Assembly: GCA_029860075.1 (NCBI GenBank)
Contig: JAOUBX010000044.1
Coordinates: forward strand, 1-37,045
DNA: 37,045 bases
Direction: 5' to 3'
From: Deltaproteobacteria bacterium
GTDB taxonomy: Bacteria > Desulfobacterota > JADFVX01
The notes under the pieces were generated by a model. That model had not been told where the DNA came from. It made no database searches and saw only the letters and a list, made by a program, of their open reading frames with translations. Shown in pieces: positions 1,373-36,030 of this stretch. Position 1 is the stretch's first letter; each line of letters opens with the position of its first letter. The position numbers and the translations under genes were made by a program.

Positions 1373-1384
1373 AATATTACCTCT

Positions 1385-3608: not shown

Positions 3609-4034
3609 TTTTAAAATCCCTCCTTCAATTTCTTAATTATCTATCACCGGGAAATAACCCTCCGGAAGCGTTCCCTCTTTCAGCCACACCTTCAGGTGCG
3701 GAGCCAAGCTTGAGTTTTCTTCTGCTTAAGGCTGCCTTTAGCGTCCACCTTTATTTGCAGTAACTTCTTTCACTGTCATCACTCAAAAGGCTTCAGTCTG
3801 TAGGTCTGCCTAAAGCAGGCAGAAAGCGGTATCTGCTTGCTGCATGGCACCTTTAAATGCTGCCCTGTCAGGTTTTGAAATCCTCACCCTTTGGGGAGTG
3901 ACTTTACTAATGCCTTAACAGGGCCGGTCAAAAAAGGGGCGCTTCCTTCAGGTCGATATTGGCGATCATTACGATCAAAGGGGTTTTTAGCCCCTGCTTG
4001 GCGCAGGACTCGAACCTGCAACACTCACAGTATG

Positions 4035-4066
4035 GTGTCGTATCAACCGCAAATTATCATTCTCAG
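4035..4066. repeat. Inverted repeat arm R (32 bp), partner of 4270..4301
   Basis: gtgtcgtatcaaccgcaaattatcattctcag is the reverse complement of 4270..4301 with 30/32 identities. In the minus-strand RNA the two arms form a ~32-bp helix closing the inserted module. Confidence 0.9.
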
Positions 4067-4269
4067 AGTCATTCATAAAGTCCAAGGCAAGGCGCAGTCA
4101 TGCAAAAATAGTTATTCATATTTTAAATGGCTGCAACGCCGCATTGGGCTTTATGGGTGTCTCCCTTCGGGCGATATGATAAGTGGCCATCTACTGCGTC
4201 GTACTCACTTGAATTAGTAACAACTAGTCCTGCGCTCGTACGTCTTGCATATGACCACTTCTCATATCG

Positions 4270-4301
4270 CTGAGATTGATAATTTGCGGTTGACACGACA
4301 C
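4270..4301. repeat. Inverted repeat arm L (32 bp), partner of 4035..4066
   Basis: ctgagattgataatttgcggttgacacgacac, which is the reverse complement of arm R with 2 mismatches. Confidence 0.9.
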
Positions 4302-4476
4302 TCATGTGATGCTCTACCCATTGAGCTAACCAGTTCCCAATACCGGCCTTTGTCAGATCCCATGTCCGGTACACACAATGTTAATCTTTCAAACAGTGTG
4401 TGCCGCTGGCCCGGCGGTATGAGCTTTTTAAAGAACCTGATAGCGGGCATTTCCGCCATCTCTTGCCTTCTATAAT

Positions 4477-4492
4477 GGCAACTCATGTGCCA
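4477..4492 (-). promoter_or_regulatory. Sigma54 (-24/-12) promoter for the leader-spfh-rtcA-rtcB transcript
   Basis: The minus strand reads TGGCAC-ATGAG-TTGCC (revcomp of + 4477-4492 ggcaactcatgtgcca). This is an exact TGGCAC-N5-TTGC with correct GG/GC spacing. It points toward the tRNA-mimic leader and rtc genes, and the cognate sigma54 activator RtcR is encoded divergently. Confidence 0.65.
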
Positions 4493-4569
4493 ACTTTATA
4501 AAAAAAGCCAAAATACTTCTTAACTATCTGTAATAACGAATATAATTTATTTTTACAGACAATTCTGTC

Positions 4570-4598
4570 TTGACAACTGTTCTCGAATAATGCATATT
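4570..4598 (+). promoter_or_regulatory. Candidate sigma70 promoter for rtcR (-35 TTGACA, 17-bp spacer, -10 CATATT)
   Basis: TTGACA at 4570-4575 and CATATT at 4593-4598, about 37 nt upstream of the rtcR ATG. An adjacent small palindrome cAGACAattcTGTCTt could be an RtcR/autoregulatory site. Sequence match only. Confidence 0.3.
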
Positions 4599-4634
4599 TC
4601 TTATATGTATTTATAAGAAAGTATAAAATTAGAT

Positions 4635-6212
4635 ATGAAAAAAACAGTGGCAATTGGTTTGCTAGGAACCATGATGGATCAGGGCAAAGATGAGAAGCGC
4701 TGGCAGCGGTGGCGTCCGACGGTATCCCTTTGTCAGCATGAGGAATTGCTTATAGACCGCCTGGAGCTACTCTACGAAAAACGCTACTCTTCAATTGTGA
4801 AACAGGTTGCTCAAGATATTAAAGCTGTGTCGCCGGAAACAGAAGTAGTCCCTCAAAATGTACATTTTAGAAATCCCTGGGATTTTGAGGAGGTCTATGG
4901 TGTCCTTCACGACTTTGCCAGAGGCTACACTTTTGATGTAGAGAACGAGGATTATCTTATCCATATTACGACGGGAACACATGTGGCCCAGATATGCCTC
5001 TTTCTCCTGACCGAGTCTCACTACTTTCCTGCAAGGCTGATTCAGACCAGTCCGGCGGGAAGGCAAAAGGTTGAAGGTTCTTATGCCATTATCGATCTCG
5101 ATCTCTCAAAATACGACCAACTCGCCATGCGCTTCAGGCAGGAAATCAAGGACGATATCTCCTTCCTCAAGTCCGGCATAGAAACAAGAAATGAGGCTTT
5201 TAACAGTCTTATTGAAAGGATAGAGCGCGTTGCCATGCACTCCATCGACCCAATTCTCCTCATGGGGCCCACAGGGGCAGGTAAGTCAAAGCTGGCCCGC
5301 AGGATCTACGATCTCAAGCAGAGTCGGCGACAGTTGGCGGGAAATTTTGTCGAAGTCAATTGTGCCACGCTCCGGGGGGACGGTGCCATGTCGGCTCTTT
5401 TCGGCCACAAAAAGGGAGCTTTTACAGGGGCCATTGAGGGGAGGGAAGGGCTTTTAAGGGCTGCCGACAAGGGAGTTCTCTTTCTAGATGAGGCAGGAGA
5501 ACTAGGGCTTGATGAACAGTCCATGCTTTTAAGAGCCATTGAAGAAAAATCATTTCTCCCTGTCGGAGCGGACAGGGAAGTCAATAGCGACTTTCAACTG
5601 ATCTGCGGAACGAACCGGGATCTTCAAAAAGACGTTGCCCATGGACGTTTCAGGGAAGATCTTTTTTCCCGTATCAATTTGTGGACCTTTAACCTTCCTG
5701 GACTAAAAGAACGCCCTGAAGATGTAGAGCCCAACCTCGATTATGAACTGGACCGTTTTGCCGAGAGAAATAATCTGCATGTTACCTTTAATAAAGAAGC
5801 CAGAAAAGGCTTTCTTGATTTTTCTACATCCCCCGAAGCTTCATGGTCGGCCAACTTTCGAGATCTAAACAGTGCCGTCACCCGAATGGCAACACTCTCA
5901 AAAGGAGGACGGATAAGGGAAGAGGAAGTTCTTGAAGAAATGGGACGGCTGAGGAAATTGTGGAGCAAACCGGAAAAGGGAGAAGATGTTTTAATTGAAC
6001 GACTTGGAGAAGAAAAGGTTGACCGTCTTGACCGTTTTGACCGGGCGCAACTGGCCGATGTGCTGAGCGTATGCAAGCAATCCAAAAGCCTATCCGAGGC
6101 GGGGCGTATTCTTTTTAACGTATCAAGAAAAAGCAAGAAAACCAGCAATGATGCCGACAGGTTGCGAAAATATCTTACGCGATTTGATATTAACTGGACT
6201 GATTTGCAATGA
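4635..6212 (+). CDS. rtcR: Sigma54-dependent transcriptional activator RtcR (N-terminal CARF domain + AAA+ sigma54-interaction domain + C-terminal HTH)
   Basis: 525 aa, collinear with E. coli RtcR (KKTVAIGLLGTMMDQ..., Walker A GPTGAGKS, and GAFTGA at 5419-5436). It is divergent from the sigma54 promoter of the rtc operon. Confidence 0.95.
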   Translation: MKKTVAIGLLGTMMDQGKDEKRWQRWRPTVSLCQHEELLIDRLELLYEKRYSSIVKQVAQDIKAVSPETEVVPQNVHFRNPWDFEEVYGVLHDFARGYTFDVENEDYLIHITTGTHVAQICLFLLTESHYFPARLIQTSPAGRQKVEGSYAIIDLDLSKYDQLAMRFRQEIKDDISFLKSGIETRNEAFNSLIERIERVAMHSIDPILLMGPTGAGKSKLARRIYDLKQSRRQLAGNFVEVNCATLRGDGAMSALFGHKKGAFTGAIEGREGLLRAADKGVLFLDEAGELGLDEQSMLLRAIEEKSFLPVGADREVNSDFQLICGTNRDLQKDVAHGRFREDLFSRINLWTFNLPGLKERPEDVEPNLDYELDRFAERNNLHVTFNKEARKGFLDFSTSPEASWSANFRDLNSAVTRMATLSKGGRIREEEVLEEMGRLRKLWSKPEKGEDVLIERLGEEKVDRLDRFDRAQLADVLSVCKQSKSLSEAGRILFNVSRKSKKTSNDADRLRKYLTRFDINWTDLQ

Positions 6213-6258
6213 AGAGGATGTATCATTGAAAATTATTGAAAACAAACTGATAGTTAAA

Positions 6259-7179
6259 ATGAAGTTCGGTTCTCATCTTTATGGAACAGCAACCTCTCAT
6301 TCGGATGTGGATTACAAAGGTATTTTTCTGCCGACCAGGGAAGAAGTTCTTCTCGGTAAAATAGCGAAATGTCATAGCTACACCTCGGGAGAGGAGGGTG
6401 CAAAAAATACGAAGGATGATATTGATATTGAACTCTATTCTCTTCATTTTTTTATTAAGCTCGCCTGTGATGGTCAGACCGTTGCCATGGATATGCTTCA
6501 TGCCCCTCAAGATATGTTGATTGAATCGTCGCCCATCTGGGTTGATATTGTTAATAATCGAGAGAAATTCTATACTAAAAACCTTAAATCCTTCATTAAT
6601 TATGCCCGCCGTCAGGCAAGCAAGTATGGTATTAAAGGTTCCAGGTTGAGTGCTGTGAGAACCATTCTTGATCTGCTTGAAAAAGAAGATTCTTCAAAAA
6701 AGATGAGGGAAATCTGGCATATGCTCCCCGAGCTTGAACACTGTTATCATGTTGCACCTAATCCCGATGGTATGAGGCAGTATCAGGTATGCGGAAAATA
6801 TTTTCAGGAATCTGCTGCCATCGATTACGTCATCCCCATTTTGCAAAAGTTCAGTAACGATTATGGAGGAAGGGCGAGACAGGCGTCGGAAAATAAAAAT
6901 GTCGACTGGAAGGCTGTTTCTCATGCCTTAAGGTCAGCATATCAGACCAGGGAAATACTGACCTACAAGAGGATTACTTTTCCATTAAAGGAGGCTGAAC
7001 TTTTAAAAAAGGTCAAAGAAGGTAAGATGGATTATATGTCGGAAGTTGCGCCCCTTTTAGAGGATTTAATGGATGAAGTTGAAAGTCTGGTCGCCGAAAG
7101 CTCACTTCCTGAAAAAGTTGATCAGAAGTTCTGGGATGATATTATTTGCAATACCCTGGAGAAAGAGTTGTTTGGATAG
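6259..7179 (+). CDS. Pol-beta-superfamily nucleotidyltransferase (RlaP/COG3541-like, RNA-repair associated), paralogue 1
   Basis: NTase motif GSHLYGTATSHSDVDYKGIF (GS...DxD). The longest ORF starts at 6148 and overlaps rtcR by 65 nt. Alternative in-frame starts are TTG 6226 and ATG 6259, so the start is uncertain. A conserved helical C-terminal half follows. Confidence 0.7.
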   Translation: MKFGSHLYGTATSHSDVDYKGIFLPTREEVLLGKIAKCHSYTSGEEGAKNTKDDIDIELYSLHFFIKLACDGQTVAMDMLHAPQDMLIESSPIWVDIVNNREKFYTKNLKSFINYARRQASKYGIKGSRLSAVRTILDLLEKEDSSKKMREIWHMLPELEHCYHVAPNPDGMRQYQVCGKYFQESAAIDYVIPILQKFSNDYGGRARQASENKNVDWKAVSHALRSAYQTREILTYKRITFPLKEAELLKKVKEGKMDYMSEVAPLLEDLMDEVESLVAESSLPEKVDQKFWDDIICNTLEKELFG

Positions 7180-7185
7180 ATCGAT

Positions 7186-7950
7186 ATGAAAGAAATTATT
7201 ATTAAAGAACTGGAAAAAATTGAAAAAGAGTTTCATGTCAGGATCATCTATGCCTGTGAGTCAGGCAGCCGTGCATGGGGATTCCCATCAATGGACAGTG
7301 ATTATGATGTACGTTTTATCTACGTTCACCCAAGAGACTGGTATCTTTCCATCGGTGAGAGACGGGATGTTATCGAGCGTCCTATCGATAGTGAGCTGGA
7401 TATTGGTGGTTGGGATATTCGAAAGGCCCTCAAGCTCCTGAAAAAATCAAATTCCCCTCTTCTGGAATGGATTTCTTCGCCTATAGTTTACCGTCAGATT
7501 GGGTCCGTTATGGCTCCCTTCAGGGATCTATCGGAAAAGGCTTTTTTGCCTGAATCTTCATTTCACCACTACCTCGCCATGGCGAAAAAGAAGGTGTCTG
7601 AGATGCAGGAGGAAGAGAAGGTTCGTGCTAAAACGGCTTTCTACGCATTGAGGCCACTTTTATGCTGCACATGGATAGTTGAATTTGGAACCCAGCCTCC
7701 AATGAAAATCGATGAACTTCTATCAGTCTTTATTCCCCATGGTGATTTGCGTGATTACCTCGATGAATTAATAGATGAAAAAAGCAGGAACACTGAATCC
7801 TTTCTTATAGAGCCCTGTACTGAATTGGATGACTACCTTGAACTACAGTTGAGTGAGCTTCAGTTGAATGTGCCTAAAAATCCCGAAAAACTTAAAACTG
7901 AAGTTTTTGATGAAGTTTTCAGGGACGTTTTGAGAACGGTTGAAGAATGA
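7186..7950 (+). CDS. Pol-beta-superfamily nucleotidyltransferase (RlaP/COG3541-like), paralogue 2
   Basis: 254 aa with motif ACESGSRAWGFPSMDSDYDVRFIY (GS...DxD), typical of the ~250-aa predicted-nucleotidyltransferase family found in RtcB neighbourhoods. It starts 6 nt after paralogue 1. Confidence 0.7.
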   Translation: MKEIIIKELEKIEKEFHVRIIYACESGSRAWGFPSMDSDYDVRFIYVHPRDWYLSIGERRDVIERPIDSELDIGGWDIRKALKLLKKSNSPLLEWISSPIVYRQIGSVMAPFRDLSEKAFLPESSFHHYLAMAKKKVSEMQEEEKVRAKTAFYALRPLLCCTWIVEFGTQPPMKIDELLSVFIPHGDLRDYLDELIDEKSRNTESFLIEPCTELDDYLELQLSELQLNVPKNPEKLKTEVFDEVFRDVLRTVEE

Positions 7951-13421: not shown

Positions 13422-13794
13422 GTTGAAAAATTCATCTGCTCCTATTGACTCATTAGAAAATGTTGCCAAAGGTATAGCCCTGTAAAGTGGGTACGAACTT
13501 TGTGCCCACGCGGTAGAAAAAAGGGGGTGAAAAAATGGGAACAGGTTGGCTTATTCTAACAAAACTAACCCTTGCCATGTTTATCCAGAAAAGCATTTAC
13601 AAAGGTAGTCGCTTAAGGTATAAAAAATAATCAAACTTTTTGTGGAAAAAGAAATGGGGAAAGAGAAAAAAACAGAAAGCCCGGATCGGTAACGGTTTCG
13701 GGACTTTTTATGGATAAGACTGGTTGAAACAGTCGCTTTCCCTATTAATTTAACTGAGTAAAACCAATATATATTAAGAAATGAAGATTGCGAT

Positions 13795-16700
13795 ATGAAA
13801 CAAGACATGCTTCAAGCAGTAATTGAGCAGCTCGATTTTAGCAATGGACAGCTCTTTAGCACTGTAGAAGTCTCTCGTGGATCGCTTAGCCGGAAGGATT
13901 GGCTGGACAAAGGAGATTGGCTTCTTTCTGCCCAAAAAGCTGGAGTGGAGTATATCTTTTTTGTTGAGAACAACCCCGTTGCAGTTTTTGCACGGAGCAA
14001 AAAGTCAGATGAAGAGAAAATTGCAGTTTTCAATAAAATTTGGTGTTTGGCACGACCTCGCCTTCTATTTCTGGAATCAGAAGGTGAGCTTTCTGTTATA
14101 GACCTGGCACAAGCCCCGATACGGCAAGAATGGAACGTCGATAAACAAAAACTTACCGCATTAGAGATATTGACATCCGTTGAGAAGGTTGCACGTAAAT
14201 TACAAAAATATCACCGTGACAATATTGAAACAGGCAAGGTCTTTGAGCATGGACGATTTGGTGATTTAAAACATCGGGCCGATCAGGCGTTGATTGCTGA
14301 CTTGAGGACCGTCAGGGGTGAATTGATGCAGGCAGGCCTTCACGGTCCCAAAATGCAATATGCCCATGCTCTAATCGGACGATCCATATTTATTCGTTAT
14401 CTGGAAGACCGGGGCATTTTAACTGAAGAGTATTTTTCTAAAGTTGCTGGATCAAATCCGACATGGCAGACACTATTACAAAATCCTTATTCACGTGACC
14501 AAATGGATTTCTCCGGCGTTAAAGCAAAATATCCACGTGTACTTCAGGATAAGGATTTTACTTATGCATTATTCCGCATGCTCTCGATAGATTTTAATGG
14601 AGATATGTTTCCTGACATTGATGAGGAAGAAAAAAATATTGAGGGCAGGCACCTGCAACTCATACAAGAACTTTTATATGGTGATGTTGGCTCTCAGAAA
14701 AAGCTGTTTTTTTACTCCTATAAGTTCGATATCATCCCGCTCGATCTGATCAGTGCGATCTATGAGGAATTTTACCATGCATCAGCAAGTGCGAACGAAA
14801 AAAAGAGCAAGGCACGGCAAGACGGAGCTTACTACACCCCGCCGGCACTGGCCGAATTCGTTCTGTCAAGAATACTGACTGATGAAGTGTTACAGAAAAA
14901 TCCGAGAATACTAGATCCGGCATGTGGCTCCGGGATATTTCTGGTTGAAGCATTCCGTCGAGTTGTTCGTTATCGGCTATATCAAAAGAAATCTTCTCTA
15001 CATTTCAGCGAATTGAAGGAAATACTCGGAAGGCAGATTGCAGGCATTGAGGTCAATGAAGAAGCAGCCCGAATCACCGCATTCAGCTTATACCTTGCCA
15101 TGCTGCACTATCTGGATCCACCATCCATTTTTGAACACATCCTGAATGGAGATAAACTGCCAAACCTGATTATGTCAGCGAATGAGTTAGACAATCATTA
15201 CAACAGCATCCATGTGGCTAATGCGTTTGCTCTCGACAATAAAAACGTAGGAGAAATTGATGTTGTGGTGGGCAATCCTCCATGGGGTGCGCCCAATAAT
15301 CCAAGTAAGGGTGCCAAAGATCGTCAGCGCATCATGCTGGACTGGTGCAAAAAAAGAAAATACCCCATTGGAGACAACGAACCATCCCAGGCTTTTCTTT
15401 GGCGATCGCTGGATTTCCTGAATAAAGAAGGCCGGTGCGCCTTGTTGACCTCTGCTGGGGTTCTTTTCAACCATAGTTCAACCACACAGACGTTCCGCCG
15501 AGAATGGATGAGCAGAGTTTGCATTACGGAAGTATTCAACTTCTCTCATGTGCGGAAATTCTTCTTCAAGGGAGCAGATTCTCCTTTTGTGATGATTCAT
15601 TTCAAGAATGGTGAACAAGGTAAAACTCCGGTTGAATACTGGTCCCTAAAACAGGTGGCTTCACTTAAGGAAACACAAGCAATCCTGCTGTCGAAATATG
15701 ATCGAGCTTATTTGACGGGACAAGACCTGACCGACAATAAAACATGGAAAGCTAATTGGTTCGGTAGACATGCGGATACAGTGTTTTTTCATCAGTTTCA
15801 TAATTTTAAAACATTATTAGATCACATAGATAGGAGATTCTCAGGCCAAGGGATATCACCCAATCCTCCCCAAAAAGCTACAGACGATTTGCCAAGAAAT
15901 TTATTGGTACAATCTTCATTTAGTCGTTTCAATGATTCTCTACAGTTTAAAAATTTACCCCTGCGTGTATACAGACTAGGAAAAATAGAAACATATACTG
16001 GCCCACGTTTATTAATTAAAAGAGGTATATCCGAAAAGGGGGAGACAAAAGGTACTGTTGTTGCCAGATATGAATCTAAGAATTTTTGTTTTACAAACGC
16101 AATTAATGGAATCAAATTAATCAATAATGAAGAAACACAATATTTACTTTTTCTTGGTATCTTGTGGTCATCATTCAGTAGATATTTTTATTTCAATATC
16201 TCAGCAAATTGGGGGTTGTGGCATCATGAAATTCACCTTGATGATGAATTGCTTCAACTCCCCATTCCTAGTCGTCTACGGGGAAAGGAAGCAAACCACG
16301 TTGTCTCCATCGTCAAAAAACTCCGAAACTACCAGCCTCAGGTACAGGACGTATTATATCCTGATGGTGTTCCGCAAAATGAAATCGAATTACAGCGGCG
16401 TAAATGGGAAGCGGAACTTGATGAGGCTGTCTTTGATTTGTACGGTTTTACCAAAGAACAGCAGGATTTGATCCGTGATTGCTGTGAAGTGACTCTGCCA
16501 TTCTTTTATCAGCCTTATAACAGTGTTGGCGCTATGCCAGGAGTAAAAGGCAGTGATACTTCCTGGATAAAACACTATGCTGAACGGTTTGCCCGACGCT
16601 GGCAACCTTATCTGAATCAAGACGAAATTCTGCGGGCTGACCTTCACATTGGCGCGTCCGGTAATATGGTCGCCATAGAATTTTACCCGGCAGACTTGGG

Positions 16701-16959
16701 CGATGAGTGGAATCTATCACCCAAAACAGATTCTTGGGGGCATGTTCTGGAAGAAATCAGCAAGTCATTACCACGTCCCATGGGGACATCTCAAATCCTG
16801 CTTGATGGGATCGTCCATATCGTGACAGATAACAGCATCATAGTTATAAAACGCAACGAGAAACGATTCTGGACACGAAGTCTGGCCTACGAGGATGCTG
16901 AGTCCACATTGGCCAAGCGTATGCTGGAAACAATGCCTGAAAAGAGTGGTGTTGAATAG
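13795..16959 (+). CDS. Large gamma-class N6-adenine DNA methyltransferase (Eco57I/MmeI/PglX-like architecture: N-terminal helical domain, MTase core, C-terminal TRD)
   Basis: 1054 aa with motif I ILDPACGSGIFLVEAF, motif IV VVVGNPPWG and a ~500-aa C-terminal region. No convincing D...ExK nuclease motif is seen in the N-terminal 330 aa. Confidence 0.85.
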   Translation: MKQDMLQAVIEQLDFSNGQLFSTVEVSRGSLSRKDWLDKGDWLLSAQKAGVEYIFFVENNPVAVFARSKKSDEEKIAVFNKIWCLARPRLLFLESEGELSVIDLAQAPIRQEWNVDKQKLTALEILTSVEKVARKLQKYHRDNIETGKVFEHGRFGDLKHRADQALIADLRTVRGELMQAGLHGPKMQYAHALIGRSIFIRYLEDRGILTEEYFSKVAGSNPTWQTLLQNPYSRDQMDFSGVKAKYPRVLQDKDFTYALFRMLSIDFNGDMFPDIDEEEKNIEGRHLQLIQELLYGDVGSQKKLFFYSYKFDIIPLDLISAIYEEFYHASASANEKKSKARQDGAYYTPPALAEFVLSRILTDEVLQKNPRILDPACGSGIFLVEAFRRVVRYRLYQKKSSLHFSELKEILGRQIAGIEVNEEAARITAFSLYLAMLHYLDPPSIFEHILNGDKLPNLIMSANELDNHYNSIHVANAFALDNKNVGEIDVVVGNPPWGAPNNPSKGAKDRQRIMLDWCKKRKYPIGDNEPSQAFLWRSLDFLNKEGRCALLTSAGVLFNHSSTTQTFRREWMSRVCITEVFNFSHVRKFFFKGADSPFVMIHFKNGEQGKTPVEYWSLKQVASLKETQAILLSKYDRAYLTGQDLTDNKTWKANWFGRHADTVFFHQFHNFKTLLDHIDRRFSGQGISPNPPQKATDDLPRNLLVQSSFSRFNDSLQFKNLPLRVYRLGKIETYTGPRLLIKRGISEKGETKGTVVARYESKNFCFTNAINGIKLINNEETQYLLFLGILWSSFSRYFYFNISANWGLWHHEIHLDDELLQLPIPSRLRGKEANHVVSIVKKLRNYQPQVQDVLYPDGVPQNEIELQRRKWEAELDEAVFDLYGFTKEQQDLIRDCCEVTLPFFYQPYNSVGAMPGVKGSDTSWIKHYAERFARRWQPYLNQDEILRADLHIGASGNMVAIEFYPADLGDEWNLSPKTDSWGHVLEEISKSLPRPMGTSQILLDGIVHIVTDNSIIVIKRNEKRFWTRSLAYEDAESTLAKRMLETMPEKSGVE

Positions 16960-20559: not shown

Positions 20560-23121
20560 TTAGTGAACCAGGAATTCCAGTTCAGAACCACTGATTTGGT
20601 GGAAGTTGAGATATTTGTAGATTCTATCCGTTGCATCGGCAGTAATTTTCTTGGGAACTATCTCCATGTACTCACTTGCTGATGGGAGACGACCCAGCAT
20701 GGCAGTAACAGCAGCAAGCTCGGCACTACCGAGGTAAACCTGAGCACCTGTTCCAAGTCTGTTGTTGAAGTTTCTTGTCGATGTTGAGAATACGATTGTG
20801 TTGTCACCAACTCTTGCCTGGTTACCCATGCAAAGTGAACAACCCGGGATTTCTGTTCTTGCACCTGCAGCACCATAGATGGAGTAGTAACCCTCTTGCT
20901 GAAGTGTTTTCTCATCCATTTTTGTTGGAGGACAAATCCACAGCTTTGTTGGAACCTGACCTTCACCTTGCAGTACTTCACCAAGCGCTCTGAAGAGACC
21001 GATATTTGTCATACAGCTTCCAACAAATACTTCGTCGATCTTTTCATTTGGTCTCTTGTCATCAGCTAAAATTTCAGTCAGTGTAGCAACATCATCAGGA
21101 TCATTAGGGCAACAGAGAATAGGCTCTGTGATCTCGTTAAGATCGATCTCTATGACAGCTGCATATTCTGCATCAGAATCAGCTTCAAGAAGTTCAGGAT
21201 TTGCGATCCACTCTTTCATCTTATCAGCTCTTCTCTGAAGCGTGTTGGTATCTTCATAGCCTTCAGCAACCATCTGCTCGATAAGTTTGATGTTTGATTC
21301 AAGAAATTCGGTGACAGGCTCTTTATTGAGCTTAACGGTACAGGCGGCAGCACTTCTTTCAGCCGATGCATCAGAAAGTTCAAAAGCCTGCTCACATTTA
21401 AGATCTTCAAGACCTTCGATTTCCATAACACGTCCGGCGAAGATGTTTTTCTTACCCTTTTTTTCTACCGTAAGATGGCCATCCTGGATAGCCTTATAAG
21501 GAATGGCGTTTACAAGGTCTCTAAGGGTGATACCGGGCTGCATTTCTCCTTTGAACCTGACCAGTACCGATTCAGGCATATTGAGAGGCATGCTGCCTGT
21601 AACACCGGCAAATGCTACAAGGCCGGAACCTGCGGGAAATGAGATGCCGATTGGGAATCTTGTATGGCTGTCACCACCGGTACCGACTGTATCAGGAAGA
21701 CAGAACCTGTTGAGCCATGAGTGGATAACACCGTCACCGGGTCTGAGGATAACACCGCTTCTTGAAGTGATAAACTCAGGAAGTGTATGCTGAAGTTTGA
21801 TATCAGCCGGCTTTGGATAGGCTGCCGTGTGACAGAAGGACTGTAAAACAAAATCGGAACCAAAACCGAGAGCGGCAAGTTCCTTGATTTCGTCTCTTGT
21901 CATTGGTCCCGTTGTATCCTGGGAGCCTACCGTTGCAGCGACAGGCTCAACATACATACCCGGTCTTACACCTGCCATACCGCAAGCTTTACCAACCATT
22001 TTCTGTGCCAGAGTATAGCCTTTGCCCGTATCGGCAGGTTGCTCAGGCTGAGCGAACATATCAGATGCGCCCAGGCCCAGCGCTTCTCTTGCTTTGGCAG
22101 TGAGGCCTTTTCCGATGATAAGAGGAATTCTTCCTCCCGCTCTCATCTCGTCAGCCAATGTATTTGGATTGAGTTTAAATGTGTTTACGGTGGAGCCATC
22201 TTTTTCTATGACACCTTCGTAAGGCTTTACAGTGATCACATCACCCGTTTCGAGGTTGGCAACATCAGTCTCGATGGGGAGGCAGCCTGAATCTTCGGCT
22301 GTATTAAAGAAGATAGGAGCGATGGTGTTACCGATAACAATGCCGCCTGTTCTTTTGTTAGGAACACCGGGGATATCTCTACCCATGTGCCACTGAACAG
22401 AGTTGATACCGGATTTTCTACTTGAACCGGTACCTACAACGTCACCAACATAGGCCAGAGGATGACCTTTAGCTTTCAGCTCTTTCATTGTATCGAGAGG
22501 GTTTTCCATCCTTGCAACAAGCATGGAGTTGGCATGTAGCGGGATGTCACTTCTGGTGAAGGCTTCGCTTGCCGGTGAAAGGTCATCTGTGTTTGTCTCA
22601 CCGGGAATCTTGTAGACCGTTACGGTGATCTCTTTTTCCAGTTCAGGCCTGTTTGTAAACCACTCAGCATTGGCCCAGGACTCGATAACCTCTTTAGCCT
22701 TTGCATTGGATGAAGAAAGTTCTACAACGTCATTGAAGGCATCGTAGACCAAAAGGGTGTTTTTAAGTTTATCAGCAGCAAGGTCAGCTACTTCATCAAC
22801 GGTCAGTGCATCGATAAGAGGTTTAACATTGTATCCACCAAGCATCTGGCCCAGTGCATTTACCGCTTCTTCTTTTGATATTGCAGTTGATATATTTCCC
22901 TGTACTACGTCATTTAAAAATGCCGCTTTTACATAGGCCGAGTCATCAACGCCGGGAGCAACGCGTGTAAATAAGAGTTCTTTTAATTTTTCAGTTTCGC
23001 TGTCATTTGCTTTTATCAGTTCGATGACTTCTGCTGTCTGCTCAGGGGTGAGTGGAAGAGGTGGTACATTGAGTGCTGCTCTTTCTTGTACATGTTGATC
23101 ATAGTTTTTTAAAAAATCCAT
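20560..23121 (-). CDS. acnB: Aconitate hydratase B (bifunctional aconitase 2 / 2-methylisocitrate dehydratase)
   Basis: 853 aa, collinear with AcnB (N-terminal HEAT-like region, swivel domain and aconitase catalytic domains, with Cys ligands in the SCMTNIG / GCSLCMGNQ region). Confidence 0.95.
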
Positions 23122-27704: not shown

Positions 27705-29921
27705 ATGTATATATCTCCCCTTAAAAAGATAAAAATTGCCGAACTGGAAGACAGGCAAAGAAGAAGGAGAGATTTTTACATCCTCATAGGGACCATTTTG
27801 ACAATGGCGGGGCTGACATTTCTTGAAACCGCGCTGTACAAGCAGGGAGGTGAACTCCCCGTTGCCAACAATATCCTCATATTTGTCATTATTAATATTA
27901 ATGTCATCCTCCTTCTTCTCATTCTTTACCTCCTTGTAAGAAACCTGGTAAAGCTATTTTTTGAACGAAAAAGCCGGATTCTCGGTGCAAAACTCAAAAC
28001 CAAACTTGTTGCCGCCTTTGTATCTTTATCGCTTATACCAACGCTTCTTCTCTTCTCTTTTTCAGTTGCCTTCATTTCAAACAGTATTGAAGATTGGTTC
28101 AGCGCTCCCGTTGAAAAGACCCTTAAGGGGGCGGAACAGATATCGAGAAGTTTTAATAATGCCAAGGCTGACGAAGCTATTTACCATGCCAATCAGATAA
28201 GCAAGAAGATCAAGGAGCGAAAGCTCATTAATCAAAACAGGCTCAACTCTCTCAGGTGGTATCTCAAGGCCAAAGTTGTTGAGTACAGGCTGGGAAGTAT
28301 TGAAGTGTTTTCACCGCATCAAAAGGTTTTGGCCGCTGCCGTTCACCCCGACCTTTCTGCCGACCTTTTCTCCTTACCCGAGTCCTCTCTTATAAAAGAT
28401 GGATTAATGGGCAAAAAAACATCCGTCATTCAGACTGTAGGCAAAGGGGATATGATAAGGGGCGTTTCTCCCATTTATTCAACATGGAAAAAAGATGATA
28501 TTGTTGCCGTCGCTGTTGCCACCTATTACATTCCTTACAGGCTTGTTGCCAAAATGACCGATATCAGCAACTCCTACAAGGAGTACAGGCAGCTTAAAAT
28601 GGTCAAGTATCCCGTTAAAATGAATTATCTCATGACGCTGCTTATGGTGACGCTTGTCATTATTTTTACGGCAATCTGGTTCGGCCTTTACCTTGCAAAG
28701 GGGATTACCGTGCCTATTCAGGAACTGGCAGAAGGAACCAATGAGGTTGCCAACGGCAATCTTGACTTTAAGATCGACCTTGAGTCAGGCGATGAGGTGG
28801 GCACACTGGTGAGTTCTTTTAACAAGATGACGGAAGATATCAAAGTGAGCAAAAGGAGGCTCGAAAAGAGTAACCTCGACCTGGAAAACAGACGCCGGTA
28901 TATCGAGATCATTTTAAGAAGTGTGACGGCGGGCGTTATCTCTGTGGACAAGCTGGGTAAAATCAGTACCATTAACAGGTCTGCCGAAAAAATGGTTGGT
29001 GTTAGAGGGGAGGATATTTTAAACAGGAACTACAAGAAAGTGGTCGGCAAATATTATCAGGAAATGATAAAGAGTATGGTAAAGGCCGCTTTTGCCGCCG
29101 GTGGAACGATAGAAAGGGAAACCAAGCTGACACTTAAGGGAGAGAACGTGACTCTTCTTATCAGCCTGTCCATATTACGTGATGAAAGAAATAATTACCT
29201 TGGTATGGTTCTTGTTTTCGATGATCTGACGGAACTCATTAAGGGGCAGAGGGCTGCTACCTGGAGGGAAGTTGCCCGGCGCATTGCCCATGAGATAAAA
29301 AACCCCCTTACTCCCATACAGCTTTCGGCGCAAAGATTGCAAAAACGATTTGGGGACAAGGTTGATGACGAAATGGATATTTTTGGAGAGTGCACCTCAA
29401 CCATTATCAGCCAGGTTGATGAACTGAAGGCGCTTGTTAATGAGTTTTCCAGTTTTGCCCGCCTTCCCGCAGCGAATCCCGTTGCTACTCATATAGGAGA
29501 GATCATTAAAGAGGTCCTTTCCCTCTATCGTGAAGCCCATAAGGATGTTGATTTCAGAACCTTCATGCCCGACAATATTCCGCTTCTTAATCTCGATCAG
29601 AAGCAGATCAAACGGGTTTTTATTAACCTTCTTGAAAATGCTGTCGAGGCATTGAGGTTGGAAGGGGTTATTGAAATTTCGGCACGCCATAACGAGGAAG
29701 AGAGAAAAGTGGAGATTACCGTTGCCGATAATGGCGCAGGGATTTCTCTCCACGATAAAAACAGGCTCTTTGAACCTTATTTTTCAACCAAAAAAGGGGG
29801 AACCGGTCTGGGCCTCGCCATTATTGATACGATCATGAAAGATCATAAAGCCGCTATCAGGGTGAAGGATAATGTTCCAAGGGGTACGAAGTTTATGCTA
29901 GAATTTCCTGTAATGAGTTAA
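27705..29921 (+). CDS. ntrY: Membrane sensor histidine kinase, NtrY-like (TM region, HAMP, PAS, HisKA with HEIKNPLTPI, HATPase_c)
   Basis: 738 aa with N-terminal TM helices, an H-box RIAHEIKNPL, and N/G boxes (DNGAGI, GGTGLGLAI). It lies immediately upstream of a sigma54-dependent response regulator. The symbol is by architecture and synteny only. Confidence 0.75.
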   Translation: MYISPLKKIKIAELEDRQRRRRDFYILIGTILTMAGLTFLETALYKQGGELPVANNILIFVIININVILLLLILYLLVRNLVKLFFERKSRILGAKLKTKLVAAFVSLSLIPTLLLFSFSVAFISNSIEDWFSAPVEKTLKGAEQISRSFNNAKADEAIYHANQISKKIKERKLINQNRLNSLRWYLKAKVVEYRLGSIEVFSPHQKVLAAAVHPDLSADLFSLPESSLIKDGLMGKKTSVIQTVGKGDMIRGVSPIYSTWKKDDIVAVAVATYYIPYRLVAKMTDISNSYKEYRQLKMVKYPVKMNYLMTLLMVTLVIIFTAIWFGLYLAKGITVPIQELAEGTNEVANGNLDFKIDLESGDEVGTLVSSFNKMTEDIKVSKRRLEKSNLDLENRRRYIEIILRSVTAGVISVDKLGKISTINRSAEKMVGVRGEDILNRNYKKVVGKYYQEMIKSMVKAAFAAGGTIERETKLTLKGENVTLLISLSILRDERNNYLGMVLVFDDLTELIKGQRAATWREVARRIAHEIKNPLTPIQLSAQRLQKRFGDKVDDEMDIFGECTSTIISQVDELKALVNEFSSFARLPAANPVATHIGEIIKEVLSLYREAHKDVDFRTFMPDNIPLLNLDQKQIKRVFINLLENAVEALRLEGVIEISARHNEEERKVEITVADNGAGISLHDKNRLFEPYFSTKKGGTGLGLAIIDTIMKDHKAAIRVKDNVPRGTKFMLEFPVMS

Positions 29922-29933
29922 AGGGAGAATGCA

Positions 29934-31286
29934 TTGAATTGCAATATATTGATTGTCGATGATGAAGAGAGTATAAGAAGCACCCTTTCGGGAGTTCTGA
30001 AAGACGAAGGCTTTGATGTAATTCTTGCCGAAGACGGTGAAAAAGGATTCGATATGGCAAAGGAGGAAGGGCCCGATCTCGTTCTCCTCGATATCTGGAT
30101 GCCCGGTATTGATGGTATGGAAACGCTAAAAAAGATAAAGAGTGAACTTCCCCACCTTCAGGTCATTATGATGTCGGGCCACGGTACTATCGAAACCGCT
30201 GTTCAGGCGACGAAACTGGGGGCCTATGATTTTATTGAAAAGCCGCTTTCTCTCGATAAATTGCTTTTGTGCATTAATAATGCGCTTAGCCTGCACCGTC
30301 TTGAGGAAGAGAATAAGCGACTGAAAGAAAAATTTGGCGGCTGGCGTGAAATGGTTGGTGAAAGTGTGGCCATGAAGAAGCTTAAAGAGCAGATAGCTAC
30401 CGTGGCGCCTTCCAATGCCTGGGTGCTTATTACCGGTGAAAACGGGACAGGCAAGGAGCTTGTTGCAAATCTCCTGCATCTCAAAAGCAAGCGATCTGAC
30501 GCGCCTTTTGTTGATGTCAATTGTGCCGCCATTCCTGAAGAACTCATTGAGAGTGAGCTTTTCGGACATGAAAAAGGCGCTTTTACGGGGGCCGTTTCGA
30601 GTAAAAGAGGCAAGTTTGATCTTGCCAACGGCGGGACGCTTTTTCTTGATGAGATTGCTGATATGAGTCTTAAAACGCAGGCCAAAATATTGAGAATTCT
30701 TCAGGAACAGCGCTTTGAAAGGGTGGGAGGCAGCAAAAGTATCAAGGTTGATGTACGGGTCGTTGCAGCCACCAATAAAGACCTTTTGCAGGAGATCAAG
30801 GAAGGCAGTTTCAGGGAAGATCTTTATTACCGGCTCAATGTTATCCCATTCGAAGTACCGCCTCTCAGAGAGAGAGAGCAAGACATTGAACTCCTTGTTA
30901 AAAAGTTTGTAAATCTCTATTCCAAGGACATGGGTGGGCCTGCAAAGCGTTTCCATGATGAGGCCATTGAAGGATTAAAGCAATATCACTGGCCCGGCAA
31001 TGTACGAGAGCTCAAGAATCTCGTTGAAAGACTGGTTATCATGACACGCGGCTCTGTTATAAAAAAGTCAGATCTTCCACCCTATATTCCGGGGAAAGAG
31101 CTTAAAGGACCTGACTTTGAAAGCTTTGGCAGCTTAAAAGATGCAAGGAACGCCTTTGAAAAGGCTTTTATTGCAGAAAAGCTGGCTGAAAATAATGGAA
31201 ATATAACTAAAACAGCAGAGGCTATAGGGCTTGAAAGGAGCAACCTGCATAAAAAAATCAAAATGTATGAGTTGGAAGTGGATTAA
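29934..31286 (+). CDS. ntrX: Sigma54-dependent response regulator (receiver + AAA+ sigma54-activator + Fis-type HTH), NtrX/NtrC-like
   Basis: 450 aa with a receiver domain (ILIVDDE..., DLVLLDIWMPG), Walker A GENGTGKE, GAFTGA at 30574-30591 and a C-terminal HTH. The symbol is tentative. Confidence 0.8.
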   Translation: MNCNILIVDDEESIRSTLSGVLKDEGFDVILAEDGEKGFDMAKEEGPDLVLLDIWMPGIDGMETLKKIKSELPHLQVIMMSGHGTIETAVQATKLGAYDFIEKPLSLDKLLLCINNALSLHRLEEENKRLKEKFGGWREMVGESVAMKKLKEQIATVAPSNAWVLITGENGTGKELVANLLHLKSKRSDAPFVDVNCAAIPEELIESELFGHEKGAFTGAVSSKRGKFDLANGGTLFLDEIADMSLKTQAKILRILQEQRFERVGGSKSIKVDVRVVAATNKDLLQEIKEGSFREDLYYRLNVIPFEVPPLREREQDIELLVKKFVNLYSKDMGGPAKRFHDEAIEGLKQYHWPGNVRELKNLVERLVIMTRGSVIKKSDLPPYIPGKELKGPDFESFGSLKDARNAFEKAFIAEKLAENNGNITKTAEAIGLERSNLHKKIKMYELEVD

Positions 31287-31287
31287 T

Positions 31288-31785
31288 ATGGCTGGTGTTT
31301 TAGCAAGAAGATATGCCCTTTTTCCCCTCCTTTTGTTTCTTCTTGTTTCTTGTGGAAAAGGGGGCTCTGTTGTAGGTAAGGAAGCGCCACCCTTTAAGTT
31401 GGACCTTCTTGAAGGAGGGCAGATCGGTATAAGCGATTTAAGAGGCAAGCCTGTTATTCTCTATTTTTTTGCAAGCTGGTGATGGCGCTGCAAGGATGAG
31501 ATTCCCCTGGTCAAGGGGGCATACAGTAAATACAAGGAAAAAGGGCTCACTATCATCGGTATCGGTATCCAGGATAAAAAAGAGAAAATAGCCGATTATG
31601 TAAAGGAGAAAAAACTGGAATGGCCCGTGGGTTTTGACAAAGGAGATCTTATTGCCAGAACTTATGGTATAACTTTTGGCGCCGGTGTCGTGTTTATTGA
31701 TTCCTCCGGTATTGTGCAGGGTCGCTTTCTGGGTGGCTTTGGCAATAAAGAACTGGAAAAAGAGATTGGGAAAATAGTTAAATAA
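31288..31785 (+). CDS. TlpA/ResA-like thiol:disulfide oxidoreductase lipoprotein with in-frame UGA (candidate selenocysteine) replacing the first Cys of the CxxC motif
   Basis: Lipoprotein signal peptide (LLFLLVSC). The sequence reads ...GKPVILYFFASW-[TGA at 31480-31482]-WRCKDEIPLV..., and the ORF continues in frame for 100 more codons with canonical TlpA-family sequence to the TAA at 31783-31785. The stop falls exactly where W-C-x-x-C is expected. A hairpin CCCCU-GGUCAA-GGGGG lies 22 nt downstream (31504-31519). Confidence 0.7.
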
Positions 31786-32111
31786 AGAGAGTTTCTTTTG
31801 AGTCGATTTAATGCTAACCCCCTGTTTTATTTAAACAGTAGCCGCTGTTAAGGAACTGAAAATCATTCTTGACAGTGTGGAAATGATGGTATATCATCTT
31901 TTATGAGAAGATGGGCAAAATCAGAGATTTACCTGTTTTTTTAATACGATAGGCTGGCAGGTTAAGTAGTTCAGGAAGTCGGTTGTCACACTGGGATGGA
32001 AGAGAAAAACAACGGCAGGGCGCTCCTTTCCGTATGGGGGTTTCGAACCATCGTAAGTGCTCCACATGGGTCGGAAGTACCCAGAGTTTTTAGGAAAGGA
32101 GGTAAAACGCT

Positions 32112-35379: not shown

Positions 35380-36030
35380 TTAAAACTCTTTCCTTACCCT
35401 TTCAACGAGAATGTCCACAGGGACGGTGAGGACGCTAAAGTTATACTTCCATACACCCTTTCTGTCGAGCATGACAATAGCATTGGTATGGCCGAATGAT
35501 CCGTCTTCATTTTTCTCGTAAAAGAACCTGAATCCCTTGAGGACCTTATCTACTTCCGATTTTTCACCTGTGAGAAAGGACCAGTATTCGGGATTGGCAT
35601 TGATAGAGGCGGCATGCTTTTTAAGTACTTCCGGCGTATCACGTTCGGGATCCATCGTTATTGAGATGAGTCTGAGCCCCTTTTTAATTTCTGACTGCAT
35701 TTCTTTCTCAATGTCCATAAATTTATGAGTCATAATGGGACAGCTTTCCTTGCAGTTTGTGTAAATGAAATTGAAAAGAACAACCTTTCCCTTCAGGTCT
35801 TCATTGGTAACAATTTTACCGTCCTGGTTCGTTAAGTTAATCGTGGGCGCCGTTTCTTCAAACTGGACAATCCTTCCATTTTCATAGATTTGGGCAGTTT
35901 TTTTCTTTTCAGCTTTTTTCGTCGTGTGCTGTTCATGAGATGAGTGATCTTCATGCCCTTTTTCGGAACAACCGGCAAATATAATAAGGGCTGCCATTAT
36001 AAGAAGAGTTATTTGTTTCATAATATTCAT
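35380..36030 (-). CDS. SCO1/SenC-family copper chaperone (thioredoxin-like lipoprotein) with a His-rich N-terminal tail
   Basis: Lipobox AGCS, His-rich region HEDHSSHEQH, the SCO motif CKESCP (CxxxCP) and a conserved downstream His. Confidence 0.8.
   Translation of the reverse strand: MNIMKQITLLIMAALIIFAGCSEKGHEDHSSHEQHTTKKAEKKKTAQIYENGRIVQFEETAPTINLTNQDGKIVTNEDLKGKVVLFNFIYTNCKESCPIMTHKFMDIEKEMQSEIKKGLRLISITMDPERDTPEVLKKHAASINANPEYWSFLTGEKSEVDKVLKGFRFFYEKNEDGSFGHTNAIVMLDRKGVWKYNFSVLTVPVDILVERVRKEF

What the first reader, a model, noticed from the sequence alone, without database searches (positions are those of the whole stretch)
31288..31785. In-frame UGA at the CxxC active site of a TlpA-like lipoprotein: probable selenocysteine (UxxC) oxidoreductase
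The reading frame runs straight through TGA 31480-31482. The stop codon falls exactly at the first Cys of the thioredoxin-fold W-C-x-x-C motif (FFASW-U-WRC). The 100 codons downstream are canonical TlpA/ResA sequence ending at a proper TAA. A small GC hairpin with a GGUC-containing loop follows 22 nt after the UGA. The gene sits directly after ntrX, within 2 nt of its stop, so it may be co-regulated by the NtrYX-like system. It would be missed, or truncated to 64 aa, by standard gene callers.
Basis: partly seen in the sequence, partly recalled or inferred. Interest (0 to 1): 0.6.

Follow-up and report, generated by a model that had tools for sequence, protein, structure and literature searches.

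The report
Selenocysteine-encoding ResA/TlpA-like lipoprotein gene
This is a real gene for a membrane-anchored, periplasm-facing thiol-disulfide oxidoreductase whose catalytic cysteine is replaced by UGA-encoded selenocysteine; the kind has been known since 2004, but this subfamily is cut in two by standard gene callers.

Summary
ORF 31288-31785 (+) has one in-frame TGA (31480-31482), at the first Cys of the thioredoxin-fold WCxxC motif (W-U-W-R-C). The Pfam AhpC-TSA/Redoxin match and a ResA match (PDB 4nmu, E=2.6e-30) both span it.

Thirteen further homologous genes (42-82% identity), from other metagenomes and MAGs, carry TGA at the same codon, with conserved coding sequence on both sides. 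An independent assembly of the same organism also has the TGA. TGA ends 3 of 23 other window genes, so the code is not reassigned.

A 6-bp hairpin (31503-31519) with a 5-nt loop starts 20 nt after the UGA. It meets all four published bacterial SECIS criteria and is paired in 14 of 14 genes, with a C-G to U-A compensatory change. Its Gly codon is always GGG, against 18% at other conserved Gly columns.

Every relative above about 45% identity appears in databases only as a fragment cut at this codon, or with the TGA misread as Trp. No Cys-form orthologue was found.

Not shown: selA, selB, selC and selD are absent from this 37-kb contig, and the rest of the genome could not be examined.

Verdict: a new, misannotated subfamily of the known UxxC "Prx-like/TlpA-like" selenoproteins. 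Moderate interest.

The parts
31288..31785 (+). Full selenoprotein gene: 165 codons including Sec65, TAA stop. A ResA/TlpA-like thiol-disulfide oxidoreductase. An alternative start, ATG 31267, overlaps the end of the upstream gene.
   Evidence: Translation. Pfam AhpC-TSA 9.9e-24 and Redoxin 4.4e-17. PDB ResA 4nmu E=2.6e-30 over profile positions 24-164. The alternative start was read directly from the sequence.
31288..31353 (+). Lipoprotein signal peptide ending in lipobox L-V-S-C22 (Cys22 = 31351-31353).
   Evidence: Read from the translation. A lipobox is present in the window and 9 other family genes. L001, L003 and L006 have an uncleaved hydrophobic anchor instead. No signal-peptide predictor was run.
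31480..31482 (+). In-frame UGA = Sec65, the N-terminal (attacking) position of the W-U-W-R-C redox motif.
   Evidence: TGA at the homologous codon in 14 of 14 family genes. It aligns with the first Cys of WCxxC in ResA.
31489..31491 (+). Resolving Cys68 (TGC) of the UxxC motif.
   Evidence: Invariant in 11 aligned sequences, as TGC or TGT. Replaced by Tyr only in the degenerate copy L008.
31503..31519 (+). Predicted bacterial SECIS hairpin: 6-bp stem (31503-31508 with 31514-31519) and 5-nt loop GGUCA (31509-31513), with G31510-U31511 invariant.
   Evidence: Paired in 84 of 84 cells across 14 sequences; C-G to U-A compensatory change in 3 sequences. Energy -8.8 kcal/mol, 26 nt from UGA to loop. 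Meets the bSECIS criteria quoted in PMC13188914. Gly codon in the 3' arm is GGG in 9 of 9, against 13 of 73 at other invariant Gly columns.
31681..31683 (+). Ala132, in the invariant F-G-A-G motif, at the position of the thioredoxin-fold cis-proline.
   Evidence: The HMM alignment to ResA 4nmu places YGitfgAg opposite YGVGPLPT. Ala is present in all 17 Sec-clade sequences read through this position. The 12 Cys-type homologues read keep Pro.
27705..31286 (+). Upstream sensor kinase (NtrY-like, 27705-29921) and sigma-54 response regulator (NtrX/NtrC-like, 29934-31286). Probably one operon with the selenoprotein gene.
   Evidence: Pfam and NCBIfam. No terminator-like site between the regulator gene's stop and the selenoprotein start; one scan hit at 31152-31165 lies inside the regulator gene's coding sequence. 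An NtrX orthologue lies directly upstream in L002, L007, L008, L011, L012 and L019.

Best explanation
The gene encodes a 165-residue prolipoprotein of the ResA/TlpA/CcmG branch of the thioredoxin fold. Selenocysteine, encoded by UGA 31480-31482, takes the place of the N-terminal active-site cysteine (U65-W-R-C68).

Proposed mechanism:
1. SelB carrying Sec-tRNA(Sec) binds the 6-bp, 5-nt-loop hairpin at 31503-31519 and delivers Sec when the UGA is in the ribosomal A site. (Inferred from sequence.)
2. The product is exported. It is lipidated at Cys22 and faces the periplasm. (Inferred.)
3. There the U65/C68 pair cycles between selenol/thiol and selenenylsulfide and reduces disulfides of envelope client proteins. 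ResA and CcmG do this for apocytochrome c, and TlpA for Sco and CoxB. The pair would be re-reduced by a CcdA/DsbD-type membrane electron carrier. (Inferred from family membership; client and reductant unknown.)
4. The gene is probably co-transcribed as the third gene of an NtrY-like/NtrX-like two-component operon. (Inferred.)

Shown here: the conserved in-frame UGA, coding conservation on both sides, the conserved and covarying hairpin, family membership, and synteny. Everything else is inference.
For: TGA conservation:
- TGA sits at the identical codon in the window and 13 other genes of 42-82% protein identity, from different samples and MAGs.
- An independent assembly of the same organism is identical across the gene.

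Homology to Cys-type enzymes: the TGA aligns with the first Cys of WCxxC in ResA, and the domain match spans it.

Hairpin:
- 100% paired in 14 sequences, with two probably independent C-G to U-A switches. Each couples a synonymous Pro change (CCC to CCU) with a Gly-to-Arg change (GGG to AGG).
- It meets all four bSECIS criteria and has the 6-8 bp stem with a conserved loop G described in PMC4605307.

Genetic code: TGA is an ordinary stop for 3 of 23 other window genes.

Lineage: the contig belongs to a MAG that NCBI labels 'Deltaproteobacteria bacterium'. Ten of the 18 selenoprotein-rich organisms tabulated in PMC1794560 are Deltaproteobacteria.

Precedent: UxxC selenoproteins of the AhpC-TSA, Redoxin and TlpA-like folds are established predicted families (PMC13188914 Table 1; PMC1088965).
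Against: - No tRNA-Sec, selA, selB or selD lies in the 37-kb contig. The rest of the genome could not be examined.
- There is no protein-level evidence.
- The hairpin is short, and its folding energy alone does not differ from shuffled sequence.
- The conserved loop G lies 27 nt after the UGA. That is further than the roughly 20 nt typical of characterised elements, though inside the 16-37 nt model range.
- The cis-proline, normally conserved next to the active site, is missing, so catalysis may differ from ResA/TlpA.
- One syntenic copy (L008) has lost both redox residues.
Confidence: 0.88

Rival explanations
1. The UGA is decoded as cysteine, not selenocysteine. A non-canonical tRNA-Cys with a Sec-like structure would be delivered by SelB, always or only when selenium is scarce.
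For: A published precedent exists: Vargas-Rodriguez et al. 2018, RNA Biol 15:471. It was seen only as a reference in PMC8762117 and was not read. Nothing in the sequence data separates Sec from Cys insertion at a SECIS-dependent UGA.
Against: No such tRNA lies in the window. No Cys-codon orthologue exists in the clade. If Cys served equally well, TGA-to-TGC/TGT changes would be expected among 14 or more diverged genes, and none is seen.
Confidence: 0.05
2. The gene is a pseudogene, a truncated gene, or carries a sequencing error. Only a 64-residue N-terminal fragment, if anything, would be made.
For: Gene callers and NCBI annotation treat it as two fragments. L008 shows that the gene can decay.
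Against: The same TGA occurs in 14 genes, with strong amino-acid conservation and free synonymous variation downstream of it. An independent assembly has the identical sequence. There are no other frame disruptions. The residues downstream are the conserved core of the fold.
Confidence: 0.03
3. The organism reads UGA as a sense codon everywhere (Trp as in code 4, or Gly as in code 25).
For: Two database homologues (P0001, P0002) are stored with Trp at this position.
Against: Those two entries are gene-caller artefacts. Their DNA has TGA, and under table 11 the loci do not translate to the stored proteins. In the window, 3 of 23 Pfam-supported genes end in TGA, and none of the 23 needs an internal TGA. 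Trp or Gly at the catalytic position would inactivate the enzyme.
Confidence: 0.01
4. Sec is inserted, but the 31503-31519 hairpin is not the SECIS. Its conservation would come from the conserved peptide P-L-V-K-G plus codon bias, and the real signal would lie elsewhere.
For: The stem lies within conserved codons. The hairpin is small. Folding energy is not significant against shuffles. No lower stem is conserved.
Against: The Gly codon in the 3' arm is GGG in 9 of 9 genes, against 18% GGG at seven other invariant Gly columns of the same genes. Lys is AAG in 9 of 9. An amino-acid change (Gly to Arg) is tolerated only together with the compensating synonymous Pro change, in 3 sequences. Sliding the pairing register by one column drops pairing to 70-74%.
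Confidence: 0.08

Closest known systems
Prx-like thiol:disulfide oxidoreductase selenoproteins (PF00578, UxxC; Kryukov & Gladyshev 2004, as listed in PMC13188914 Table 1; 'Prx-like protein' in PMC1088965)
   Same: AhpC-TSA/Redoxin fold with a thioredoxin-like UxxC motif in place of the peroxiredoxin TxxU. PMC1794560 lists it in several Deltaproteobacteria: Geobacter species, Syntrophus aciditrophicus and Desulfotalea psychrophila.
   Different: The listed representative (WP_010940744.1) could not be retrieved for comparison. No full-length, U-annotated relative appeared among the hits of the profile search. This clade has its own signature: W-U-[W/A/M]-R-C, plus Ala in place of the cis-Pro.
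[quoted passage not shown]
   Same: TlpA-like or Redoxin domain, one Sec, UxxC motif.
   Different: Subfamily identity could not be tested, because the representatives MGB1650493.1 and HEU0032618.1 were not retrievable. NCBI annotates members of the present clade as 90-aa fragments named 'TlpA family protein disulfide reductase' or 'redoxin domain-containing protein'.
ResA (Bacillus; PDB 4nmu, 1st9) and CcmG/DsbE, TlpA: Cys-type extracytoplasmic thiol-disulfide reductases
   Same: Best solved-structure match (E=2.6e-30). Same domain length and the same position of the W-C-x-x-C motif. ResA, CcmG and TlpA being membrane-anchored and extracytoplasmic is from general knowledge, not tested here.
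   Different: Sec replaces the first Cys. The dipeptide is W-R. The cis-Pro is replaced by Ala. Scores fall below NCBIfam cut-offs for ResA (98 vs 170), DsbE (41.5 vs 123) and TlpA (29.6 vs 230).
NCBIfam NF041054, ResA-like WAxxUGC motif-containing selenoprotein
   Same: A ResA-like fold that carries Sec.
   Different: Different motif and Sec position (WAxxUGC vs WUxRC), and a 354-residue model. The score is 50.5 bits against a cut-off of 300, so this protein is not a member.

Membership tests
Bacterial selenoprotein gene (SelB/SECIS-dependent UGA recoding) | In-frame UGA aligned with a catalytic Cys of homologues, with coding conservation on both sides | tested here: met
   The TGA aligns with the first Cys of WCxxC in ResA and other Cys-type homologues. 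Both flanks are conserved in 14 genes.
Bacterial selenoprotein gene (SelB/SECIS-dependent UGA recoding) | UGA-containing orthologues in other organisms | tested here: met
   Thirteen further genes have TGA at the same codon. More than 10 further database entries are C-terminal fragments that start just after it.
Bacterial selenoprotein gene (SelB/SECIS-dependent UGA recoding) | bSECIS stem-loop: 3-9 nt loop, 4-16 bp stem, G in the first two loop positions, 16-37 nt from UGA to loop, energy at most -7.5 kcal/mol | tested here: met
   Loop 5 nt (GGUCA), stem 6 bp, spacing 26 nt, energy -8.8 kcal/mol. Criteria taken from PMC13188914. Conserved with covariation. bSECISearch itself was not available.
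Bacterial selenoprotein gene (SelB/SECIS-dependent UGA recoding) | selA, selB, selC (tRNA-Sec) and selD present in the same genome | not testable with these tools
   None lies in the 37-kb contig. The window is the whole contig, and other contigs of the MAG could not be fetched.
Bacterial selenoprotein gene (SelB/SECIS-dependent UGA recoding) | Selenium present in the protein | not testable with these tools
   Needs 75Se labelling or mass spectrometry.
TlpA/ResA/CcmG-like thioredoxin-fold oxidoreductases (Pfam AhpC-TSA / Redoxin / Thioredoxin_8) | Significant domain match above the curated cut-off | tested here: met
   PF00578 84.1 bits (cut-off 26), PF08534 62.7 (26.6), PF13905 43.2 (27). ResA 4nmu E=2.6e-30.
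TlpA/ResA/CcmG-like thioredoxin-fold oxidoreductases (Pfam AhpC-TSA / Redoxin / Thioredoxin_8) | W-C-x-x-C redox motif | tested here: met
   Present as W-U-W-R-C, with Sec in the first position.
TlpA/ResA/CcmG-like thioredoxin-fold oxidoreductases (Pfam AhpC-TSA / Redoxin / Thioredoxin_8) | Conserved cis-proline loop facing the active site | tested here: not met
   Ala132 (F-G-A-G) aligns with the Pro of ResA L-P-T. Ala is present in all 17 Sec-clade sequences read through this position; Cys-type homologues keep Pro. This rests on sequence alignment only.
TlpA/ResA/CcmG-like thioredoxin-fold oxidoreductases (Pfam AhpC-TSA / Redoxin / Thioredoxin_8) | Extracytoplasmic location through a signal peptide or membrane anchor | tested here: inconclusive
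   A lipobox or a hydrophobic N-terminus is visible in all full-length members. No predictor was run and there is no experiment.
Named equivalogs ResA, DsbE/CcmG, TlpA, StoA (NCBIfam) | Score above the curated equivalog or subfamily cut-off | tested here: not met
   ResA 98.4 vs 170; StoA 52.9 vs 210; DsbE 43.2 vs 359; TlpA 29.6 vs 230.
   504.9 bits vs cut-off 600. AtoC and NtrC models score almost as well. It is best described as an NtrC-family sigma-54 response regulator.

The most novel reading that the evidence does not exclude
The clade may be an obligately Sec-dependent branch of the ResA/TlpA fold. Its signature is W-U-x-R-C with the cis-proline replaced by Ala, and no Cys-form orthologue was found among 1.84 billion cluster representatives. 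It may have a function distinct from cytochrome or copper-centre maturation. One possibility is a selenium- or sulfur-handling, or redox-signalling, role tied to the NtrYX-like sigma-54 two-component operon it follows. In one paralogue the neighbouring genes are instead two YeeE/YedE-type transporter genes.
Probability: 0.2. Interest if true: 0.55.

Novelty: new member of a known kind. Interest (0 to 1): 0.35.

Why it matters
- Annotation. Public annotation splits every member of this subfamily. NCBI and ENA hold 90-aa 'TlpA family' or 'redoxin' fragments, or entries with a spurious Trp at the Sec position, so selenoproteome counts for these uncultured Deltaproteobacteria are too low. The 14-sequence alignment and the hairpin model could seed a family-specific model for annotation pipelines.
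- Biology. A periplasmic UxxC reductase with no Cys-form relatives and no cis-proline is a useful natural case for asking what Sec contributes to a thioredoxin-fold active site.
- Regulation. The conserved position behind an NtrYX-like system gives a testable regulatory link.
- Limit. None of this overturns current understanding. UxxC Prx-like and TlpA-like selenoproteins have been catalogued since 2004-2008.

Tried and rejected
- Rfam. At gathering thresholds the whole window gave nothing. A permissive scan of 31440-31600 gave only a chance mir-500 hit (E=5.4). No bacterial SECIS family matched in either scan.
- ARAGORN found no tRNA in the window.
- Other selenoprotein genes. A scan of the window for split ORFs found only this one; the other candidates are out-of-frame shadows of real genes.
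- Single-sequence folding of the 66 nt after the UGA was not better than shuffles (z=+0.86). The case for the hairpin therefore rests on comparative data.
- RNAalifold also proposed a 4-bp helix across the UGA (alignment columns 2-5 with 10-13). It shows no covariation and has a broken cell in two of its four pairs. I did not adopt it.
- A base pair between loop positions 1 and 4 looked perfect in 11 sequences. L019 breaks it (G.G). I report it only as an observation.
- The genome-contig scan (4 relatives) and the metagenome-contig scan (6 relatives) found few loci. No locus included Sec machinery.
- The representative accessions of the published UxxC families could not be fetched, so subfamily identity with them is unresolved.
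- SCO1/SenC, 3.6 kb downstream (35380-36030, minus strand), was considered as a possible client. No SCO1/SenC-annotated gene appears in the gene tables of L001, L004, L018 or L019, so no link is claimed.

Full report
**The observation**

The + strand frame that opens at ATG 31288 runs to TAA 31783-31785 with a single interruption, TGA at 31480-31482. There are 64 codons before it and 100 after. The mechanical ORF list shows the two halves as separate ORFs.

With the TGA read as Cys, the 165-residue product matches Pfam AhpC-TSA (9.9e-24, residues 29-144), Redoxin (4.4e-17) and Thioredoxin_8 (5e-11). All of these matches span the TGA. A profile of the family matches solved ResA structures best (4nmu, E=2.6e-30, profile positions 24-164). 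In that alignment the TGA lies opposite the first Cys of W-C-x-x-C.

The N-terminus has a basic stretch, a hydrophobic stretch and a lipobox, L-V-S-C22. The upstream gene ends at 31286, one base before the ATG. A second possible start, ATG 31267, overlaps that gene's end.

**Is the TGA real and conserved?**

A protein search returned two 'full-length' relatives (P0001, P0002) and several fragments of about 90 residues. P0001 and P0002 are stored with Trp at the critical position. Their DNA has TGA there, and under table 11 the loci do not translate to the stored proteins. They are products of a gene caller that used a Mycoplasma-type code on short contigs.

The 90-residue fragments begin just downstream of the same codon. 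Extending them upstream in frame recovers the N-terminal half of the protein, and the join is a TGA. Scans of GTDB genomes and JGI metagenomes, and a profile search, added more members.

In all, 14 distinct genes carry TGA at this codon:
- the window;
- L001, L002, L003, L004, L005, L006, L007, L011, L012, L013, L018 and L019;
- a paralogue in L001 at 13673-14164 on the minus strand.

The full-length family members aligned are 42-82% identical to the window protein.

More than ten further database entries are C-terminal fragments that start at or just after the codon. Several begin 'MRC...', using the ATG that directly follows the TGA.

An independent ENA assembly of the same organism is 99.97% identical over 12.5 kb and identical across this gene. 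In that assembly the gene is called as 71-aa and 52-aa pieces. Sequencing error and a private pseudogene are therefore excluded.

TGA ends 3 of 23 Pfam-supported genes in the window, and none of the 23 needs an internal TGA. A reassigned genetic code is excluded as well.

**The RNA element**

In all 14 genes a hairpin occupies the same codons, (I/V/L)-P-L-V-(K/Q/E)-(G/R). It has a 6-bp stem, (U/C)CC(C/U)CU paired with AG(G/A)GGG, and a 5-nt loop (GGUCA, CGUGA, GGUCC, CGUGC, GGUGC or GGUCG). In the window it is 31503-31519.

Evidence that the structure is under selection:
- All 84 stem cells form standard pairs.
- One pair changes from C-G to U-A in three sequences: L004, L005 and the L001 paralogue. 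L018, the protein relative of L004 and L005, keeps C-G, so the change probably arose twice.
- That change joins a synonymous Pro change (CCC to CCU) with a Gly-to-Arg replacement (GGG to AGG). The pairing is kept at the cost of an amino-acid change.
- Where the 3' arm residue is Gly, its codon is GGG in 9 of 9 genes. At seven other invariant Gly columns of the same genes, GGG is 13 of 73 (18%). Lys in the stem is AAG in 9 of 9.
- Sliding the pairing register by one column lowers pairing to 70-74%.

The element meets each criterion of the published consensus bSECIS model (PMC13188914): loop of 3-9 nt, stem of 4-16 bp, G in the first two loop positions, 16-37 nt between UGA and loop (26 here), and energy at most -7.5 kcal/mol (-8.8 here). 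It also fits the description of a 6-8 bp stem with a conserved loop G in PMC4605307. The G here lies 27 nt after the UGA rather than about 20.

Only 1.6% of the 1520 TGA triplets in the window are followed by such a perfect hairpin. Taken alone, the hairpin is not thermodynamically remarkable (z=+0.86). The argument is comparative.

**What could not be shown**

The window has no tRNA gene, no Rfam match, and no selA, selB or selD. The window is an entire 37,045-bp contig of a MAG that NCBI labels 'Deltaproteobacteria bacterium'. Its Rho protein is about 80% identical to those of Geobacter and Geomonas. Ten of the 18 selenoprotein-rich organisms tabulated in PMC1794560 are Deltaproteobacteria. 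This makes Sec decoding plausible but does not demonstrate it for this genome.

**Function and mechanism**

By homology the protein is an extracytoplasmic thiol-disulfide oxidoreductase of the ResA/CcmG/TlpA type. It scores below every NCBIfam equivalog cut-off (ResA 98 vs 170; DsbE 43 vs 359; TlpA 30 vs 230). It is a relative of those enzymes, not an orthologue of any of them.

Sec occupies the solvent-exposed attacking position of the motif, and Cys68 is the resolving residue. My inference is a selenol/thiol to selenenylsulfide cycle that reduces envelope client proteins, with re-reduction by a CcdA/DsbD-type carrier. Neither partner is identified.

One feature departs from the family. The cis-proline that faces the active site in thioredoxin-fold proteins is replaced by Ala132, within an invariant F-G-A-G (or Y-V-A-A in the paralogue group). 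This holds in all 17 Sec-clade sequences read through this position, while all 12 Cys-type homologues examined keep Pro.

**Context**

The gene follows a sensor kinase with an NtrY-type N-terminal region and an NtrC-family sigma-54 response regulator. The regulator's GAFTGA motif is visible in its translation. Its best NCBIfam match is NtrX, at 505 bits against a cut-off of 600.

No terminator-like site lies between the regulator gene's stop and the selenoprotein start. The one scan hit nearby (31152-31165) is inside the regulator gene's coding sequence. A strong promoter-like site (31869-31897) precedes the next gene, cspA.

An orthologue of the regulator (61-92% identity) lies directly upstream in L002, L007, L008, L011, L012 and L019. 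It does not in L001, L004, L013 or L018. Co-transcription as the third gene of the operon is the simplest reading. Regulation by the system is possible but untested.

**Comparison with what is known**

UxxC selenoproteins with AhpC-TSA, Redoxin or TlpA-like folds are established predicted families:
- 'Prx-like thiol:disulfide oxidoreductase' (PF00578; UxxC or UxxU);
- 'thiol:disulfide interchange protein';
- 'Redoxin family protein' (PF08534);
- 'UGC-containing TlpA family protein'.

These are listed in PMC13188914 Table 1, PMC1088965, PMC2398784 and PMC1794560. The kind is therefore known.

The specific clade appears not to be captured by current annotation models. NCBI names its members as 90-residue fragments. 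The only ResA-like selenoprotein model that matched in NCBIfam (NF041054, WAxxUGC) scores 50 bits against a cut-off of 300.

An exhaustive HMMER scan of 1.84 billion cluster representatives found no full-length relative above 42% identity. The 42% hit is an ordinary WCASC protein with cis-Pro. Everything above 45% is a truncated fragment. I could not retrieve the published representative accessions, so whether the clade falls inside one of the catalogued families is open.

**Verdict**

This is very probably a selenocysteine-encoding ResA/TlpA-like lipoprotein gene with a conserved bSECIS hairpin (confidence about 0.88). It is a new, systematically misannotated subfamily of a known kind of selenoprotein.

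It has three features worth following:
- no Cys-form orthologues;
- loss of the cis-proline;
- a conserved position behind an NtrYX-like operon.

Interest is moderate (0.35).

Noticed in passing
L008 350-793 (JADFVM010000090.1, 'Proteobacteria bacterium' MAG): The syntenic slot after the NtrX orthologue holds a degenerate copy. The Sec codon is CGA (Arg) and the resolving Cys is TAT (Tyr). There is an N-terminal in-frame stop and a short C-terminal deletion, yet the hairpin sequence is intact. This may be gene decay in a lineage that lost Sec use.
   Followed up: partly
L001 12664-14164 (minus strand): A second family member (W-U-M-R-C, lipoprotein, same hairpin with the U-A variant) lies in the same contig as the L001 orthologue. 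Two PF04143 YeeE/YedE-type 'Sulf_transp' genes follow it directly on the same strand. A whole paralogue group with Y-V-A-A in place of F-G-A-G exists (P0019, P0022, P0023, P0037, P0060).
   Followed up: partly
P0001 (L002 474-965) and P0002 (L003 170-622): Public protein entries carry Trp at the Sec codon, because the gene caller applied a UGA=Trp code to short contigs. This artefact hides selenoprotein genes as apparently complete, inactive-looking proteins.
   Followed up: yes
window 31681-31683 (Ala132): The thioredoxin-fold cis-proline is replaced by Ala in all 17 Sec-clade sequences read through this position. Cys-type homologues keep Pro. Only sequence alignment supports this; no structural model could be made.
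   Followed up: partly
window 31509 and 31512 (hairpin loop positions 1 and 4): These two wobble positions (Leu CUG/CUC, Val GUC/GUG) covary: G:C in 7 genes, C:G in 6, and G.G in one (L019). The close relatives L003 and L006 differ, so the switch happened more than once. It may reflect a loop-closing interaction that presents the invariant G-U.
   Followed up: partly
window 35380-36030 (-): A SCO1/SenC copper chaperone gene lies 3.6 kb downstream. SCO1/SenC proteins are known clients of TlpA in other bacteria (from memory). No SCO1/SenC-annotated gene appears in the gene tables of L001, L004, L018 or L019, so no functional link is claimed.
   Followed up: partly
window 167-7950: An RNA-repair cluster: RtcB, RtcA, an SPFH/Band 7 protein, the sigma-54 activator RtcR, and two RlaP nucleotidyltransferase genes.
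   Followed up: no
window 13795-16959 (+): A 1054-residue fused methyltransferase of the MmeI/Eco57I type, probably a type IIG/IIL restriction-modification enzyme. Small ORFs without Pfam matches flank it.
   Followed up: no
L021 2-2227 versus window 20560-23121: The aconitase B gene is intact in the window (853 aa) but is called as two pieces (497 + 243 aa) in the 99.97%-identical ENA assembly. One of the four mismatches probably introduces a stop there.
   Followed up: no
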